The position numbers and the translations under genes are program-made. Shown here one piece after another: positions 8,504 through 56,710 of a stretch of DNA of 64,000 nt. The stretch is taken from IMG/VR virus record IMGVR_UViG_3300042393_000799. One strand, written 5' to 3'. Origin of the DNA: a virus. Each line of letters begins with the position of its first letter. Positions within the stretch are counted from its first letter, which is position 1. Below the pieces are notes generated by a model that saw only the letters and a list, made by a program, of their open reading frames with translations, had not been told where the DNA came from and ran no database searches.

Positions 8504-8585
8504 TTAATTATAGAGCTAATATACAAAAAAAAGCCCAAACTAAAAAATTTGGGCTTAATTATTTTCATAAAAGTTACGAACAATT
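8504..8585 (-). promoter_or_regulatory. repeated intergenic cassette (motif A, GC hairpin + T-tract terminator, TATAATTAAAA promoter-like box)
   Basis: plus-strand ttaattatagagctaatatac...aagcccaaactaaaaaatttgggctt...ttattttcataaaagttacgaacaatt; hairpin 8533-8554. Confidence 0.7.
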
Positions 8586-11500
8586 TAGAATACGAACTGG
8601 AATGTCTTCAATAAGTCTTTTCCTTTTGTTGAATCTGCTTCAACATTGAATTCACTATATAGTTTTGTATACATTAAGTCCCATTCGTCTTTATCAGCTA
8701 AAGTGTTTAATTCGCTTGCATTATCTTTGATAAATTTCTTAACATCAGATCTTAAATCTTCGTTAACTTTTACCTCAAACATTTCTACTAAAGCATCTAA
8801 CGTTAATTTAGATTCTTCTACAAATTCCTCAGCATTTTCTTTATCGTCTGGTCCAACGTCTTCAACTTTGTAAGTTTCACCTTCAAATTCAAATTCCTTT
8901 TCACCATCTGCAATTGCTTTAGCTCTTGCAGCACCGAATGCATTTCCTTCAGATACTACTAATTCAAGATCTTTGTCTTTACCAGCAACAGCTGCGTCTA
9001 ATTCTGCTTCTAATTGTCTTTTCTTAGCTGTCAATGCTTTCATTTCATCTAATAATTCAGATTTTCTATCACCTTCAGCTACTTTCCAATCACCTGCTTT
9101 TTGTTGCATTTTAGTAGTAGTTTCACTCCATTCTTTTTGGATTTTATTGATTGATCTACCTTCATTAACAACAGATTCATCAATAGCATTTGGATATTTA
9201 GTATCTTTAGCTAAATCTAAAAGAGCTTTAATATCTTCTGCCTTATTTCTATTGTATTTGTCAGCATTCTTTTTATCTTTGAATATCGCAGATACTTGTT
9301 TACCGTTATCATCAATCATAATGATAATACCTTTTTTACCATAAACTCTCTCGTCTGTAACAGATATACCTTCAATAACTACTGATTCTGACATATTTGC
9401 ATCTAATACTTTTTGGAATGATTTAGCATCAGTAACTTCTTCTCCGAACAATTCAATTGTTTCGTCATCTAAATTAATATAAATTTCAGAACCTTGATGT
9501 TTCATATCTAAAATTATAGTCATGTAATCTTTACCAATTGCAGTACCACCACTAATATATTTACCAGCTTTTTCAGCCCATGTAGCAGCTTTCTTAACTA
9601 ATGAAGTTGCATAACTTCCTTTTCTTTTAGCAAAATCTAAAACATTAGAAGGTACTCTTGCTGCTTCATTGACTTTAGATTCAAATGCTTTATCTTTTTT
9701 AGGAGCTGGTAAAATATCACCAACTTCTGGTAATTTGTCATATTGTTTCATCCAGTTATCTTCTAACATCATACCGAACATTCCATGGAATCTTTTGTCT
9801 GATACTTTTGTAGGATCAGGGAAGCCTGAATTAATAACTGTATCAACTTTAATAATATAGATTTCATCAGCTTTAGGATCAAGTGCATATGTTATTAAAG
9901 TTTTATTAAAATCTTTAGCACCAAACATAGCTTCAGTTACAACTGATTCATCATACTCTTCATAATCATCATCATACTCTTCTTCCTGGTACCATGATTG
10001 ATTTGGATCACTTTCAGCTTCTTGTGTAAAATCATGCTTTTTGAAGTTAAAACGTTTTGGATCTTCAACTAAAGCTGGGAAAAGAACTTTTCCTTTAACT
10101 TTCTTTTTATCAAATGCAATATCAATACCATCTTGTCTATTAGGATTTTCAATTCCATTCATTTGAGCTAGTAATTCATAGTAATCTTTACCACCGAATT
10201 CACCATAACCGTCGTATTTCTTTTCTTCCCATTTATTACCTTTGTCATCAAACATTGTAATTGTAATGGTATTTTGTTTTTCAGAACCAATTTGATTTCC
10301 AGTATCTTGAGCCATCCATGAGAATTGACCTTCATTAACTACTGACTCATCCATGTTTTCTTTAGCAGTATCGTAAATTGTTTGTAACCATGCTTCAAAT
10401 TGACCAGGTTCACCAGATTTAGACAAATCATGATGTTCTTTTTTAAACTCTTTTACAAATGATTTAAAATCTTTTGCTTCTTGAGCCATAATATCAATAT
10501 TTGACATTGCACTTTCGTGTAACTTTGGATTTTTTATATTTTTTACAATAGTATCTAGCTTGTCATCAAAATAACCGTATACTGGTGATCCTGGAACTGC
10601 GTGATTAACTACTTCTCCGTTATGATAAATATTATAAGATCCACCTGCGTATTCTTCGCCATCTACATCTAAATCAAATGAATCTTCTTCTAGTGATTTT
10701 TTATTAACAGTAGCTTTAACACCATCTGCTTTAGAAAGAGCGCTAGCATATAATTCTGCAACTTTTTTTGTATCGTCTAATGTAAGACCTGCTGGTTTTT
10801 TAGCAGATTCTAAAAGTTCAGGATAGTATTCTTCAATAGTTTCTTGATCCATTTCATAGAAATCACTTTTAAGATATGCAAGAATGTCTTTTTTCTTACC
10901 AGTTACTTCATATGTTCCGGGTTGACCATTTGCACCTTTTACTTTGATCTTATATTTCTTGAATGCTGCTTTAGCTGCTTTGTCATCTTCTGTACTAGAA
11001 GCGTCCCATGCCATATCAAGTTCAATGGTTTCAACTTCGCTTTCATTTACAAAGGATTCAAATTTAAAATCTTGATTCTTTTGTGATTCAGCACTTACTA
11101 CAGCTAAATAACCGATTTTTGATTTAGGTACCTTTAGTTCAATGATTGCTTTTTGTTTAGCATCCCAAAGATCTTTACCTTCTACTTCAATTTTCTTGTT
11201 ATTAAAGAATGCAAAGAATAAAGTTTCGTTAACTTTATCTGCTTCTAAAGATTCTTTAATACTTAAGTCTTTTAAACTTCTAACAGGTACACCTTTTGTT
11301 TCACCATCTTCTGGATTTGAAAATGCTAATAAACCTGCAGCAATTAATCTCTTATAAAGCTCGGTTTTAACTAATTCAAAATCAATAGAATCAGATGAAT
11401 TTTCCCAAGTATCTCCTACGTATTCTGGATCAATCCAACCAATACCTCTTTTGATACTAGTTTCCATATCCTTGTAATCCGTTTCGAATTGCTTGATCTT

Positions 11501-11734
11501 TCCTTCATTGATCTCTGCGTTTGCAAGAGATAATGATTTCATTGCTGATAATTTATCAGTAAAAAATACTAAAGCCTCATTTAATGACAAAGGTTCTTTG
11601 ATATTTTTTGTAAGCGTTTCAGCTTTTATAGAGCTTTTAGTCTCTGACTTTAATAAAGCTAGTTTAACTGCTTCAGCAGTATAGCTTACTTCAGTCGTAA
11701 CTTCTTTATTATTGAAATTAATAAATGATGACAT
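8585..11734 (-). CDS. large (1049 aa) Lys/Glu-rich hypothetical protein, possibly virion-associated
   Basis: 3.15-kb uninterrupted ORF on dominant strand; no recognisable catalytic motif. Confidence 0.5.
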   Translation of the reverse strand: MSSFINFNNKEVTTEVSYTAEAVKLALLKSETKSSIKAETLTKNIKEPLSLNEALVFFTDKLSAMKSLSLANAEINEGKIKQFETDYKDMETSIKRGIGWIDPEYVGDTWENSSDSIDFELVKTELYKRLIAAGLLAFSNPEDGETKGVPVRSLKDLSIKESLEADKVNETLFFAFFNNKKIEVEGKDLWDAKQKAIIELKVPKSKIGYLAVVSAESQKNQDFKFESFVNESEVETIELDMAWDASSTEDDKAAKAAFKKYKIKVKGANGQPGTYEVTGKKKDILAYLKSDFYEMDQETIEEYYPELLESAKKPAGLTLDDTKKVAELYASALSKADGVKATVNKKSLEEDSFDLDVDGEEYAGGSYNIYHNGEVVNHAVPGSPVYGYFDDKLDTIVKNIKNPKLHESAMSNIDIMAQEAKDFKSFVKEFKKEHHDLSKSGEPGQFEAWLQTIYDTAKENMDESVVNEGQFSWMAQDTGNQIGSEKQNTITITMFDDKGNKWEEKKYDGYGEFGGKDYYELLAQMNGIENPNRQDGIDIAFDKKKVKGKVLFPALVEDPKRFNFKKHDFTQEAESDPNQSWYQEEEYDDDYEEYDESVVTEAMFGAKDFNKTLITYALDPKADEIYIIKVDTVINSGFPDPTKVSDKRFHGMFGMMLEDNWMKQYDKLPEVGDILPAPKKDKAFESKVNEAARVPSNVLDFAKRKGSYATSLVKKAATWAEKAGKYISGGTAIGKDYMTIILDMKHQGSEIYINLDDETIELFGEEVTDAKSFQKVLDANMSESVVIEGISVTDERVYGKKGIIIMIDDNGKQVSAIFKDKKNADKYNRNKAEDIKALLDLAKDTKYPNAIDESVVNEGRSINKIQKEWSETTTKMQQKAGDWKVAEGDRKSELLDEMKALTAKKRQLEAELDAAVAGKDKDLELVVSEGNAFGAARAKAIADGEKEFEFEGETYKVEDVGPDDKENAEEFVEESKLTLDALVEMFEVKVNEDLRSDVKKFIKDNASELNTLADKDEWDLMYTKLYSEFNVEADSTKGKDLLKTFQFVF

Positions 11735-11766
11735 ATGTTTGTTTGTATATTTTACTTTATATATTC

Positions 11767-12198
11767 TTATTTTTTACCAGCACCGGAACCTTTACCACTT
11801 CCGCTTCCAGAACCTGAACCACTTCCGCTTCCAGAACCTGAACCTTTACCACTTGAACGGCCAGAACCTGTACCATAAGCATATCCTGTTCCACCTATAT
11901 TTGATCCACTTCCAGTGCCCGATCCTGATCCAGATCCTGAACCACTAGTAGCATTTTTACCTGTTTTTGGTTTTTTAGGTGTAAGTTTTTTAGCTTTTGC
12001 TTCTTTAGCAATTGGTGCTACTTCTTTTACTGGTTTAGCAGCTTTAATTTTAGTAGGCTTTTTTACTGTAGGTTCTACAATAGGATCAAGTACTGAACCT
12101 CTTTTAGAATCTTCTTTCTCTTTTTTTGCAACTGCTTTAAAAATAGTTATAATAACTACTAAAGATACTAGCACTACTGCGATGATTGTTGTACTCAT
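11767..12198 (-). CDS. membrane-anchored low-complexity protein (N-terminal TM, AKP/K-rich linker, Gly-Ser repeats)
   Basis: 143-aa ORF; MSTTIIAVVLVSLVVIITIF TM; (SGSG)n tail encoded by tandem DNA repeats. Confidence 0.4.
   Translation of the reverse strand: MSTTIIAVVLVSLVVIITIFKAVAKKEKEDSKRGSVLDPIVEPTVKKPTKIKAAKPVKEVAPIAKEAKAKKLTPKKPKTGKNATSGSGSGSGSGTGSGSNIGGTGYAYGTGSGRSSGKGSGSGSGSGSGSGSGSGKGSGAGKK
11790..11850. repeat. tandem direct repeat (~27 nt x2 plus degenerate copies) encoding Gly-Ser repeats
   Basis: ccacttccgcttccagaacctgaa occurs twice in tandem. Confidence 0.6.
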
Positions 12199-56112: not shown

Positions 56113-56138
56113 ATTATACGTTTGATTTGTTATAGTGT

Positions 56139-56615
56139 TTATTTTCTAATGATTTTAATATCGCATTTAGTATATGTTTCTTCCCAACCTCCAGGTCTCT
56201 TAGCTCTAAATCCTGATTTATTTAATAAATTATCTTCATATCGCATTAACCAACACACACCGCTATAATTTTCAATAGTTTTTTCTACTTCCGTTTCAGA
56301 TGTACATTTAATCAATGATTCAAAATATTCTGCTAGTGGTGTTGAATGTTCCCATAAAAGAAGTGATTTACCATTTTCATCTTTACCTAAAATATTTCTC
56401 TTTGTCCATAACAATTCAAATGGATCTTGATTAATTTTTTGACATGCTAAGAAAACAGCTTCAGAAACCATAGTTACTTTTTGATCTGTCATTTTTTTAA
56501 GAGTATCTTTTAAAGCTTCTTTTAATTTCTTCTTTATATAAAGATCATTTGTTGAATTATATTGTTGAATAAAAAGCCAAACAATGGGTTTAAATGCTAT
56601 ATCTTGTTCTGTCAT
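56139..56615 (-). CDS. hypothetical protein (start corrected to MTEQD; track ORF extended through the cassette)
   Basis: ATG at 56613-56615 sits ~17 nt downstream of the TATAATTAAAA box as at other cassettes. Confidence 0.4.
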   Translation of the reverse strand: MTEQDIAFKPIVWLFIQQYNSTNDLYIKKKLKEALKDTLKKMTDQKVTMVSEAVFLACQKINQDPFELLWTKRNILGKDENGKSLLLWEHSTPLAEYFESLIKCTSETEVEKTIENYSGVCWLMRYEDNLLNKSGFRAKRPGGWEETYTKCDIKIIRK

Positions 56616-56628
56616 ATCTGTTTGTTTT

Positions 56629-56710
56629 TTAATTATAGAGCTAATATACACAAAAAAAGCCAAACAAAAAAATGTTTGGCTAATTATTTTCGTAAAAGTT
56701 ACGAACAATT
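56629..56710 (-). promoter_or_regulatory. repeated intergenic cassette
   Basis: ttaattatagagctaatatacac...agccaaacaaaaaaatgtttggct...ttattttcgtaaaagttacgaacaatt. Confidence 0.7.

What the first reader, a model, noticed from the sequence alone, without database searches (positions are those of the whole stretch)
8504..56710. An ~80-nt intergenic cassette repeated at least 10 times in one orientation
Ten near-identical intergenic cassettes occur at 7598-7683 (degenerate), 8504-8585, 31542-31615, 32674-32754, 38508-38588, 41187-41267, 47354-47434, 51754-51824, 52386-52466 and 56629-56710. Read on the coding (minus) strand each cassette begins with the motif AATTGTTCGTAACTTT(T)ATGAAAATAATTA. A GC hairpin follows (GCCCAAA...TTTGGGC or GCCAAAC...GTTTGGC), then a T-tract that forms a rho-independent terminator. 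Last comes GTATATTAGCTCTATAATTAAAA, with the next ATG 15-25 nt downstream. Hairpin arms co-vary between copies (cc/gg versus ca/tg), which argues for selection on structure. Some copies lack the hairpin but keep both flanking motifs. The cassettes precede the NadV-like and Prs-like genes and several clusters of small genes. They behave like transcription-unit boundaries, a terminator fused to a promoter, possibly for a phage-specific sigma factor since a TATAAATA-like box recalls T4 late promoters. They could equally be RNA processing/stability elements or a miniature mobile repeat.
Basis: seen in the sequence. Interest (0 to 1): 0.78.

Follow-up and report, generated by a model that had tools for sequence, protein, structure and literature searches.

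The report
Terminator-promoter-leader cassettes of a phage
Ten copies of a roughly 90-base unit between genes of an uncultured large phage each seem to end one transcript and start and translate the next, using signals typical of Bacteroidota hosts; this is a new variant of the "PeSL" regulatory cassettes known from T4-type phages.

Summary
There are exactly ten copies, all on the minus (coding) strand, all at gene junctions. Related copies occur on many IMG/VR viral contigs, some up to 256 kb long.

Each unit is modular:
- an optional 17-bp imperfect palindrome, AATTGTTCGTAACTTTT ("modA");
- an A-tract;
- an invariant T-run;
- an optional GC hairpin, present in 6 of 10 copies, folding at -10 to -14 kcal/mol;
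- the box TATATT(AG/TA);
- a conserved leader, (TA)TAATTAAAA;
- the ATG, 19-24 nt after the predicted transcription start.

The TATAAT is probably not a sigma-70 -10 element, and it is not a T4-late TATAAATA box. It is replaced by AGTAAT or TGTAAT in many relatives, and it has no -35 partner. The conserved box instead matches the Bacteroidota sigma-A -7 element (TAnnTTTG) at 5 of 6 positions. TTT(T/G) lies exactly 19 nt upstream of it, and TAAAA is the flavobacterial ribosome-binding motif. Only 5 of 107 genes have Shine-Dalgarno-like sequences.

Hairpin stems tolerate G·U but never A·C (14 versus 0), so they act as RNA on the coding strand.

ModA sits only at 38, 48, 57-59 or 69 nt from the box, about one helical turn apart, which suggests a DNA-level regulatory site.

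The closest known kind is PeSL cassettes. A recombination role is suggested but not shown.

The parts
56616..56710 (-). Cassette 10 (best copy). Parts: modA 17-mer 56710-56694; hairpin 56681-56658; T-run/-33 tetramer 56671-56668; -7-like box TATATTAG 56648-56641; predicted TSS 56636/56635; leader with TAAAA; ATG at 56615.
52374..52466 (-). Cassette 9. Parts: modA core 52463-52454; hairpin 52438-52413; -33 tetramer 52428-52425; box TATATTAG 52405-52398; predicted TSS 52393/52392. The leader has AGTAAT in place of TATAAT. ATG at 52373.
51742..51824 (-). Cassette 8, without a hairpin. Parts: modA variant TGTTAATAAC 51821-51812, lying inside the 3' end of ORF 51802-52146; T-run 51796-51793; box TATATTAG 51773-51766; predicted TSS 51761/51760; ATG at 51741.
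47341..47434 (-). Cassette 7, without a hairpin, upstream of the Prs-like gene 46444-47340. Parts: modA variant TGTTAACAAG 47431-47422; T-run 47395-47392; box TATATTTA 47372-47365; predicted TSS 47360/47359; ATG at 47340.
41174..41267 (-). Cassette 6, upstream of NadV (39593-41173). Parts: modA variant 41264-41255; hairpin 41238-41215, whose 3' arm is a modified ATGTCAA block; T-run 41229-41226; box TATATTTA 41206-41199; predicted TSS 41194/41193; ATG at 41173.
38496..38589 (-). Cassette 5. Parts: modA core 38586-38577, overlapping the stop of ORF 38578-38856; hairpin 38560-38537 with one U·G pair; T-run 38550-38547; box TATATTAG 38527-38520; predicted TSS 38515/38514; ATG at 38495.
32662..32754 (-). 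Cassette 4, downstream of tRNA-Ala (32799-32873). Parts: modA core 32751-32742; hairpin 32726-32703 with one U·G pair; T-run 32716-32713; box TATATTAG 32693-32686; predicted TSS 32681/32680; ATG at 32661.
31530..31615 (-). Cassette 3, without a hairpin. Parts: modA core 31612-31603; T-run 31587-31584; box TATATTTA 31564-31557; leader TATAACAATTAAAAA; predicted TSS 31552/31551; ATG at 31529.
8488..8585 (-). Cassette 2, directly after the 1049-aa ORF 8585-11734. Parts: modA core 8582-8573; hairpin 8556-8531; T-run 8546-8543; box TATATTAG 8523-8516; predicted TSS 8511/8510; ATG at 8487.
7588..7684 (-). Cassette 1, degenerate. It has no modA and no stable hairpin. Parts: T-run 7645-7642; box TACATTAG 7622-7615; predicted TSS 7610/7609; ATG at 7587.
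   Evidence: (E = 1.1e-12)

Best explanation
Each cassette is a compact expression boundary in the accessory-gene region of a large, uncultured phage that most likely infects Bacteroidota. The accessory genes appear to be of the early type.

Read 5' to 3' on the minus strand, the cassette contains:
1. The stop codon of the upstream gene.
2. An optional 17-bp imperfect palindrome (modA).
3. In 6 of 10 copies, an intrinsic terminator. Its loop or U-tract is the promoter's own T-run.
4. A promoter built on Bacteroidota sigma-A logic: TTT(T/G) at about -33, a 19-nt spacer, then TATATT(AG/TA) as the -7 box.
5. A predicted transcription start 4-5 nt later, inside the 'TATAAT'.
6. A 19-24 nt A-rich leader that carries the flavobacterial ribosome-binding motif TAAAA.
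7. The ATG.

Transcription of one unit therefore stops where the next begins, and every downstream gene receives the same strong start signals.

What is shown:
- the anatomy and its conservation;
- the strand-specific RNA hairpins;
- the fit to published Bacteroidota consensus elements;
- the quantised spacing of modA.

What is inferred:
- the exact transcription start site;
- that modA binds a dimeric regulator or architectural protein on one face of the helix;
- early timing.
For: **Real, oriented and position-locked**
- Ten copies, all on the coding strand.
- The box-to-ATG distance is 31-36 nt in every copy, giving a predicted 5'UTR of 19-24 nt. The median 5'UTR in F. psychrophilum is 24 nt (PMC9723704).

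**Conservation across 69-155 unique relatives**
- ATTTTTTT is conserved at over 91%.
- TATATT is essentially invariant.
- The next two bases are AG, TA or TG, with almost no other combination.
- C at +9 is conserved at 94%, and TAAAA at 74-94%.

**Fit to the Bacteroidota promoter**
- The published -7 element is T-12, A-11, T-8, T-7, T-6, G-5, with 4-5 nt to the start site (PMC6847099).
- The published -33 element is TTTG (PMC7366714).
- The cassette box matches at 5 of 6 positions. Two copies match at 6 of 6.
- The tetramer at a 19-nt spacer is TTTT in 39, TTTC in 9 and TTTG in 5 of 57 copies.
- TAAAA lying 2-12 nt from the start codon is the reported flavobacterial RBS (PMC2483708).

**Host signals**
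- Only 5 of 107 genes have SD-like 4-mers. Upstream A peaks at -3 and at -11 to -13.
- The M42 peptidase's best cellular relatives are a Flavobacteriaceae MAG (70%) and a Saprospirales MAG (66%).
- The DNA polymerase of a cassette-bearing contig is closest to huge uncultured phages and to Prevotella Lak phages.

**Terminators**
- Six cassette hairpins are among the eight best terminator-like sites on the minus strand.
- Free energy is -10 to -14 kcal/mol, z -4 to -6.
- There are 23 distinct stems among relatives.
- Internal G·T appositions number 14, against 0 A·C.

**ModA**
- It is a discrete 17-mer with a sharp 5' edge.
- It is found only at 38, 48-49, 57-59 or 69 nt from the box.
Against: - There are no transcript ends, so the start site and termination are predictions.
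- The box almost never reaches the full TAnnTTTG consensus (2 of 69 copies). T-6 and G-5 are described as nearly invariant in host promoters. G at position 0 and C at +9 are extra invariant positions. Together these could mean a different or modified specificity.
- Perfect TAHHTTTG boxes are not enriched in the window (78 against 74 expected).
- The host assignment is indirect.
- Copies are related by descent, so conservation counts and the four modA spacing classes are not independent events.
- Half of the related promoters lack modA.
- No sigma factor, RNA polymerase or helix-turn-helix regulator was detected among the 113 window ORFs scanned (of 107 called CDSs plus alternative start models). 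However, only 64 kb of a probably more than 200 kb genome was seen.
Confidence: 0.65

Rival explanations
1. The promoter is a -10-type element (TATAAT) read by sigma-70-like machinery or a phage-encoded sigma factor. In this reading GTATATTAGC is an upstream recognition box for that factor.
For: - TATAAT is present in 8 of 10 window copies.
- The 23-nt block GTATATTAGCYYTATAATTAAAA is nearly invariant and recurs exactly in 28 IMG/VR stretches.
- G at position 0 and C at +9 are conserved beyond what the Bacteroidota consensus requires.
Against: - No -35 partner lies at 16-18 nt. The sigma-70 scan does not list the cassettes on the coding strand among its displayed calls, and sigma-70-like sites are no more frequent than in shuffles.
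- In modA-anchored copies the hexamer is TATAAT in only 24 of 57. AGTAAT or TGTAAT, which lose A2, occur in 14, while the TATATT box is unchanged.
- The 5'UTR would be only 8-12 nt.
- The genes lack SD sequences.
- No sigma factor was found in the window.
Confidence: 0.12
2. The 23-nt conserved block is the promoter of a phage-encoded RNA polymerase. This could be single-subunit, T7-like in logic, or a divergent multisubunit enzyme as in jumbo phages. It would be independent of host sigma factors.
For: - The length and near-invariance of the block across phages whose flanking genes differ.
- The systematic one-base departure from the host -7 consensus.
- Related contigs reach 170-256 kb, i.e. 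jumbo size.
- Large window ORFs of 1049, 606 and 523 aa have no detectable homologs.
Against: - No RNA polymerase domain was found in any window ORF.
- Conservation extends 24 nt further upstream, through the T-run, at the spacing expected for a sigma-A -33 element.
- TTTG appears at exactly 19 nt in the copies where the T-run is interrupted.
- The 3' half of the block is explained by the leader and the TAAAA ribosome-binding motif.
Confidence: 0.12
3. The cassettes are primarily recombination modules, PeSL-like 'mobile regulatory cassettes'. Their repeated sequence would drive gain, loss and exchange of the genes between them. This is compatible with the best explanation rather than exclusive of it.
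For: - Among cassette junctions in the window and relatives, 6 upstream-flank clusters join more than one downstream flank, and 10 downstream clusters join more than one upstream flank.
- Three indels between the window and 85-93% identical contigs end exactly at cassette edges: 32672, 41207, and 56619/56708.
- Four window cassettes are as similar or more similar to paralogs 24-44 kb away (96%) than to their orthologs.
Against: - Only 3 of about 9 indel events touch a cassette, against about 2 expected by chance from junction counts (my tally).
- Indels also occur at plain junctions (48215-49041, 49450-50333, 58734-61853).
- No event is a clean cassette-to-cassette deletion.
- Four cassettes are closer to their orthologs than to any paralog.
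Confidence: 0.3
4. The repeat is a miniature transposable element, or a purely RNA-level processing or stability element.
For: It is a dispersed repeat of 80-95 nt with an internal hairpin. Hairpins at 3' ends can stabilise mRNA.
Against: - All copies are on one strand, none is inside a gene body, and the distance to the next ATG is fixed.
- No terminal inverted repeats or target duplications are visible.
- The hairpin is absent from 4 of 10 copies, while the flanking motifs stay.
- The helical phasing of modA points to DNA-level function.
- There is no Rfam match.
Confidence: 0.04

Closest known systems
PeSL (promoter-early stem-loop) cassettes of T4-type phages (Arbiol et al. 2010, PMC2839356; Comeau et al. 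2014, PMC4122927)
   Same: - It is a composite unit with the same order of parts: AT-rich stretch, stem-loop terminator just upstream of a promoter that resembles the host's primary-sigma consensus, then the ribosome-binding site and start codon of the next gene.
- It is repeated between small accessory genes of unknown function.
- It is near-identical within a genome and differs slightly between phage groups.
- It is found next to indels between close relatives.
   Different: - The promoter is not sigma-70-like (no TTGACA-N17-TATAAT). It fits the Bacteroidota -33/-7 pattern.
- The ribosome-binding motif is TAAAA, not Shine-Dalgarno.
- The terminator physically overlaps the promoter: its loop or U-tract is the -33 T-run.
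- There is an extra 17-bp palindromic module at helically phased distances.
- The hairpin is optional.
- The phage lineage is not an established T4-type phage.
- Recombination at the cassettes is not demonstrated here.
Bacteroidota primary-sigma (sigma-ABfr) promoters: -33 TTTG / -7 TAnnTTTG, plus the flavobacterial TAAAA RBS
   Same: - The box TATATT(AG/TA/TG) matches 5-6 of the 6 defined -7 positions, with non-G at the two free positions.
- TTT(T/G/C) lies 19 nt upstream.
- An A/T-rich spacer.
- The predicted leader of 19-24 nt is close to the flavobacterial median.
- TAAAA lies within 2-12 nt of the ATG in most copies.
   Different: - It almost never has the full TTTG.
- It adds an invariant G before the box and an invariant C after it.
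- It has an invariant 8-nt T-run instead of a short -33 element.
- It has not been shown to be read by the host enzyme.
T4 middle promoters (MotA box plus -10) and other activator-dependent phage promoters
   Same: A promoter with an imperfect core element combined with a conserved upstream protein-binding motif shared by a whole class of phage genes.
   Different: - ModA lies much further upstream. Its centre is about -45, -55, -65 or -76 from the predicted start.
- ModA is palindromic and is missing from half of the promoters.
- No MotA/AsiA-like genes were detected.

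Membership tests
PeSL cassettes | A stem-loop that can terminate transcription, placed just upstream of the promoter in one composite repeat | tested here: met
   - 6 of 10 window copies qualify.
- 41 of 155 unique related promoters have a strict terminator-like hairpin. The stem's 3' end lies at -7 to -9 or at -20 to -22 from the box.
PeSL cassettes | The promoter matches the sigma-70 consensus (TTGACA/TTTACW-N17-TATAAT-like) | tested here: not met
   - No -35 element lies at 16-18 nt. None of the ten cassettes appears on the coding strand among the calls displayed (28-43 weaker calls per scan were not shown).
- The TATAAT position is variable in relatives.
- The analogous criterion, matching the host's own primary-sigma consensus, is met at 5 of 6 positions for Bacteroidota.
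PeSL cassettes | [quoted passage not shown] | tested here: met
   - The AAAATAA block and the T-run are conserved.
- TAAAA and the ATG sit at fixed distances.
- The RBS is of the flavobacterial type rather than SD.
PeSL cassettes | Concentrated in hyperplastic regions among ORFans, and associated with indels between close relatives | tested here: inconclusive
   - The cassettes lie among small unknown ORFs and auxiliary genes.
- Several indels end at cassette edges.
- However, 3 of about 9 events against about 2 expected is not an enrichment.
PeSL cassettes | Recombination between tandem cassettes yields deletions or mini-circles | not testable with these tools
   This needs inverse PCR on infected cells, or deep read-level analysis.
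PeSL cassettes | The host genome is a T4-type myovirus | tested here: inconclusive
   - A cassette-bearing contig (L027) encodes a family-B DNA polymerase. By my recollection of the T4 sequence, it carries a gp43-like SLYPSI motif.
- Its closest relatives are huge uncultured phages and Lak phages.
- No T4 core structural gene was identified in the window.
Bacteroidota sigma-A promoter | A -7 element TAnnTTTG (T-12, A-11, T-8, T-7, T-6, G-5) | tested here: inconclusive
   TATATTAG occurs in 36 copies, TATATTTA in 28 and TATATTTG in 2 of 69. In modA-anchored copies the counts are 29, 26 and 2. This is always 5 or 6 of 6, and never both T-6 and G-5 lost.
Bacteroidota sigma-A promoter | A -33 element TTTG about 19 nt upstream of the -7 box | tested here: inconclusive
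   - The tetramer at a 19-nt spacer is TTTT in 39, TTTC in 9 and TTTG in 5 of 57 copies.
- The published -33 element is weak or undetectable in flavobacteria.
- The 19-nt optimum is from my memory of Chen et al. 2007.
Bacteroidota sigma-A promoter | Transcription starts 4-5 nt after the box and depends on host holoenzyme | not testable with these tools
   No transcript data. The predicted start sites are listed.
Intrinsic (rho-independent) terminator | A GC-rich stem-loop followed by a U-tract on the transcribed strand | tested here: met
   Strand specificity is shown by 14 G·T against 0 A·C appositions within stems.
MITE / miniature mobile repeat | Terminal inverted repeats, target-site duplications, and insertion in either orientation, including inside genes | tested here: not met
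   Single orientation and junction-only placement. No TIR or TSD is seen in the aligned copies.
T4 late promoter | A TATAAATA box at -10 | tested here: not met
   The cassettes carry TATAAT, AGTAAT or TATAAC. TATAAATA occurs 14 times in the window against 13.7 expected.

The most novel reading that the evidence does not exclude
The cassette may be a portable expression module shared by a whole clade of large (up to jumbo-size) phages of Bacteroidota. Its promoter would deliberately fall one base short of the host consensus, and so depend on a dedicated factor. That factor would bind the 17-bp palindrome modA on one face of the helix, or be a phage-encoded or phage-modified sigma or polymerase that recognises GTATATT(AG/TA)C. 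The phage would then switch an entire gene class on or off through one site. The same repeats would serve as crossover points that shuffle accessory genes between phages.
Probability: 0.2. Interest if true: 0.72.

Novelty: new variant of a known kind. Interest (0 to 1): 0.55.

Why it matters
- Transcription signals of phages that infect Bacteroidota are almost unknown. Full-text searches found papers on the host consensus but none describing phage promoter cassettes of this kind.
- This family supplies more than 150 natural variants of a compact terminator, promoter and leader unit that should work in flavobacteria. It is therefore directly useful as genetic parts for a phylum where standard bacterial promoters and ribosome-binding sites fail.
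- It extends the PeSL idea, in which regulatory repeats insulate and possibly shuffle accessory genes, from T4-type phages of Proteobacteria to an unrelated host phylum with different promoter and translation rules. This suggests the architecture is a general solution in large phages.
- The helically phased palindrome is a concrete, testable handle for finding the regulator of a phage early-gene class.

Tried and rejected
- **Sigma-70 reading on the coding strand.** Rejected for lack of a -35 element and because the hexamer varies.
- **Antisense sigma-70 promoter.** TGTCAA is the reverse complement of TTGACA. TTGACA-N17-GATTAT is called on the plus strand in cassette 47343, and weakly in 51744. 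Rejected because the TGTCAA block is replaced by hairpin arms in six copies, and sigma-70 logic does not apply to the likely host.
- **T4-late box.** Rejected.
- **Single consensus hairpin with compensatory changes.** The two main window hairpins are in registers shifted by one base, so I did not run a pair-count on a forced common structure. I used distinct-stem counts and G·U versus A·C instead.
- **Close relatives among deposited phages.** Megablast of 4 kb, and tblastn of the 1049-aa and 606-aa ORFs, found nothing useful. A blastn search with a cassette found nothing. A 41-kb stretch of the nearest deposited huge phage, LR756500.1, has no cassette.
- **Looking for an RNA polymerase.** PDB sequence searches of the two largest unknown ORFs were empty.
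- **Rfam.** tRNAs only.
- **Enrichment of perfect host -7 boxes.** None.
- **Extending beyond the window's left end.** L139 showed no further cassettes in 10 kb of large, probably structural genes.
- **Concerted evolution among paralogs.** The signal was mixed.

Full report
**Observation.**
- The repeat is real. The 3' motif GTATATTAGCTCTATAATTAAAA occurs 7 times at up to 3 mismatches, against 0 expected.
- The 5' motif AATTGTTCGTAACTTT occurs 12 times against 2.4 expected.
- The repeat finder returns the family as its top direct repeat.
- A profile built from the copies finds exactly ten matches, with E from 3.6e-23 to 2.9e-10, all on the minus strand. The eleventh hit has E = 0.49.
- A shorter core profile built from 155 related sequences finds the same ten.
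- The window has 31.7% G+C and nearly all genes are on the minus strand. The copies therefore share the orientation of the genes. Each lies between a stop codon and the next ATG.
- In five copies the upstream ORF ends inside the first motif.

**Surroundings.**
- The window is an accessory-gene region of a phage. It contains NadV, a Prs-like gene, a Thg1-like gene, DNA ligase, glycosyltransferases, a KdsA-family enzyme, an epimerase, an M42 peptidase, NUDIX, NADAR, thioredoxin, endolysin-type domains, seven tRNAs and many small unknown ORFs.
- No deposited phage is close to it.
- The exact 23-mer recurs in 28 stretches of IMG/VR contigs, including contigs of 170 and 256 kb.
- The 230 kb of DNA fetched around those hits hold 75 further copies, giving 70 unique sequences overall.
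- The 5' 16-mer alone brings in more contigs. With all loci pooled there are 155 unique promoters of this type.

**Anatomy.** I aligned copies without gaps on the G of GTATATT, taken as position 0.
- The conserved blocks are AAAATAA (about -42 to -35) and ATTTTTTT (-24 to -17, 91-97% except T-17 at 68%).
- T at -15 (99%) and T at -13 (97%) are also conserved.
- GTATATT follows, then A/T at +7, G/A at +8 and C at +9 (94%).
- TATAAT at +12 to +17 is conserved at 70-94%, and TAAAA at +18 to +22 at 74-94%.
- The ATG follows 8-14 nt later in nine of the ten window copies; the degenerate copy 7593 has no TAAAA in register.
- Upstream, half of the copies carry a discrete 17-mer, AATTGTTCGTAACTTTT (modA). 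It has a sharp 5' edge and partial dyad symmetry, AAnnGTTnnnAACnnTT. The central CG co-varies with AA.

**Which promoter logic.**
- The TATAAT is the eye-catching element, but it is probably not the -10 hexamer of a sigma-70 promoter.
- There is no -35 partner at 16-18 nt. The consensus scan does not list the cassettes on the coding strand among its displayed calls (the weakest calls of each scan were not shown). Sigma-70-like sites in the window are fewer than in shuffles.
- Among copies ascertained through modA alone, the hexamer is TATAAT in only 24 of 57. It is AGTAAT or TGTAAT in 14. The upstream box is TATATTAG (29), TATATTTA (26) or TATATTTG (2), and nothing else.
- That box matches the Bacteroidota primary-sigma -7 element TAnnTTTG at five or six of its six defined positions. 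That element is defined as T-12, A-11, T-8, T-7, T-6, G-5, with non-G at the free positions and the start site 4-5 nt downstream (PMC6847099; PMC7366714; PMC9723704).
- Exactly 19 nt upstream, where the -33 TTTG belongs, the tetramer is TTTT, TTTC or TTTG in 53 of 57 copies.
- In copies where the T-run is interrupted, it reads TTTTGGG. This puts a perfect TTTG at the 19-nt spacing.
- TAAAA within 2-12 nt of the start codon is the reported flavobacterial ribosome-binding consensus (PMC2483708).
- With the start site placed 4-5 nt after the box, all ten window cassettes give leaders of 19-24 nt. The median leader in F. psychrophilum is 24 nt.

**Host.**
- Only 5 of 107 genes have a Shine-Dalgarno-like 4-mer. 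The upstream region is A-rich, with peaks at -3 and at -11 to -13. This is the pattern described for Flavobacterium johnsoniae (abstract of PMC6847099; the -11 to -13 detail is from my memory of that paper).
- The M42 peptidase's closest cellular relatives are in a Flavobacteriaceae MAG (70%) and a Saprospirales MAG (66%).
- A cassette-bearing contig encodes a family-B DNA polymerase whose best matches are huge uncultured phages and Prevotella Lak phages.
- These lines are indirect but they agree with one another.

**Terminators.**
- Six cassettes hold the strongest terminator-like sites on the minus strand. They fold at -10.2 to -14.2 kcal/mol, z -4 to -6.
- The other four do not fold.
- In relatives, 41 of 155 promoters have a strict terminator just upstream, with 23 different stem sequences.
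- There are two architectures. In one, the stem arms flank the T-run, which is then the loop, and a second T-run abuts the box. In the other, the stem ends at -20 to -22 and the promoter's T-run is the terminator's U-tract.
- When one non-Watson-Crick apposition is allowed inside a stem, I count 14 G·T and no A·C. This asymmetry is expected only if the hairpin works as RNA transcribed from the coding strand. Some of the G·T pairs are next to the loop, so the clean count is about 7 to 0.

**ModA.**
- Its distance to the box takes only the values 38, 48-49, 57-59 and 69 nt, in 78 unique copies. These are steps of about 10.3 nt, whatever lies between.
- What lies between can be nothing, an A-tract block, or a 7-bp or 13-bp hairpin. 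In one class modA sits in the hairpin loop.
- This phasing, the dyad symmetry and the sharp edges suggest a DNA-level site on one face of the helix relative to the promoter. It would be a regulator or architectural-protein site, centred about -45, -55, -65 or -76 from the predicted start.
- The classes are few and related by descent, so this is an inference.
- No regulator was identified in the window.

**Recombination.**
- Cassettes often join different neighbours in different phages.
- Three indels between the window and 85-93% identical contigs end at cassette edges:
  1. The 304-aa ORF 31747-32661 is absent from L008. The break is at 32672, in the leader.
  2. The block 41207-45033 is absent from L005 and L008. 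The break is between the T-run and the box.
  3. The gene 56139-56615 is absent from L024. The break is at 56619.
- Six other indels lie at ordinary junctions. Three of about nine is not more than the two expected by chance.
- Paralog-versus-ortholog similarity is mixed.
- A PeSL-like shuffling role is therefore possible but not shown.

**Comparison with known systems.**
- The closest known kind is the PeSL cassette of T4-type phages. That cassette has an AT-rich stretch, a stem-loop terminator, a host-consensus early promoter, and the ribosome-binding site and start codon. It is repeated among ORFans and linked to indels and mini-circles (PMC2839356; PMC4122927).
- The present family has the same architecture and setting. 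It differs in these respects:
  - its promoter and translation signals fit another phylum;
  - its terminator is merged with its promoter;
  - it adds a phased palindrome;
  - it sits in a lineage not known to be T4-type.
- I therefore call it a new variant of a known kind, not a member in the strict sense.

**Limits.**
- There are no transcript data.
- The host is inferred.
- The copies are not independent samples.
- Part of the related set was ascertained with the motifs themselves. The modA-anchored set was used to reduce that bias.

Noticed in passing
window 1-8487, minus strand (ORFs 1121-2692, 3757-4059, 4062-4865, 4880-5221, 5424-5762, 5769-6098, 6113-6691, 6694-6966, 7684-8487, and the ORF cut by the left end): About ten adjacent, otherwise dissimilar genes share the N-terminus MK(K/H)xKLFE(E/Q)F(L/I/V)xE (repeat families D2 and D5). 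From memory, this resembles the capsid-targeting sequence of T4 internal proteins (MKTYQEFIAE, cleaved after L/I-x-E). T4 internal proteins are a diverse set sharing only that signal (PMC3012670). This could be a hyperplastic locus of injected proteins. Two cassettes (8494, 7593) lie within it.
   Followed up: partly
window 6990-6999, 8490-8499, 11756-11765, 12222-12231, 12513-12522, 26212-26221, 32879-32888, 35735-35744, 53602-53611 (minus strand) and 58715-58724 (plus strand); L139 9391-9481: A second short motif, RATATATAAW, occurs 12 times against 5.3 expected (2 of 100 shuffles reach 12). Eleven of the 12 are on the coding strand. Ten lie within about 30 nt upstream of a gene start, including tRNA-Ala. 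It dominates the cassette-free stretch from 8.6 to 31.5 kb. A related GTATATAAATAA follows a terminator beyond the left end of the window. It may be a second promoter class. The exact T4-late box TATAAATA is at chance level.
   Followed up: partly
window 58735-61852, plus strand (ORFs 58743-59189 and 59212-61842): This is the only sizeable plus-strand block. It includes an 876-aa ORF with 27-nt periodic repeats (families D3 and D4) and no detectable homologs. A terminator follows at 61843-61890. The block is absent from the otherwise collinear relatives L023 and L025, but it is present in other assemblies.
   Followed up: no
window 32874-33095: A 222-nt stretch without an ORF lies upstream of tRNA-Ala. 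It is richer in G+C than its surroundings. It has no Rfam match at the gathering threshold. It is a possible unannotated RNA or a decayed gene.
   Followed up: no
window 62663-63061 and 63228-63706: Long gaps sit between tRNA genes in the cluster at 61.9-63.8 kb. One is a 399-nt gap containing tRNA-like fragments such as GGTTCGAGTCCTACC. Neither ARAGORN nor Rfam called these.
   Followed up: no
window 11767-12198: A 143-aa ORF carries tandem Gly/Ser-rich repeats, about 24-30 nt per unit (family D6). One window ORF, not localised, hits the Hc1 histone-H1-like family at E = 2.3e-23.
   Followed up: no
window 39593-41173, 46444-47340, 41707-42552 and neighbours: The region holds an NAD+ salvage and RNA-repair style gene set: NadV, a Prs-like phosphoribosyltransferase, NUDIX, NADAR, a Thg1-like tRNA-His guanylyltransferase, HAD_SAK_2 and YqeY. 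NadV and the Prs-like gene each have their own cassette.
   Followed up: partly
window 32770-32798: A second, symmetric hairpin (AAAAAGACTCATCGAATGATGAGTCTTTTT) lies between tRNA-Ala and cassette 32664. This junction therefore has two terminator-like structures in tandem.
   Followed up: no
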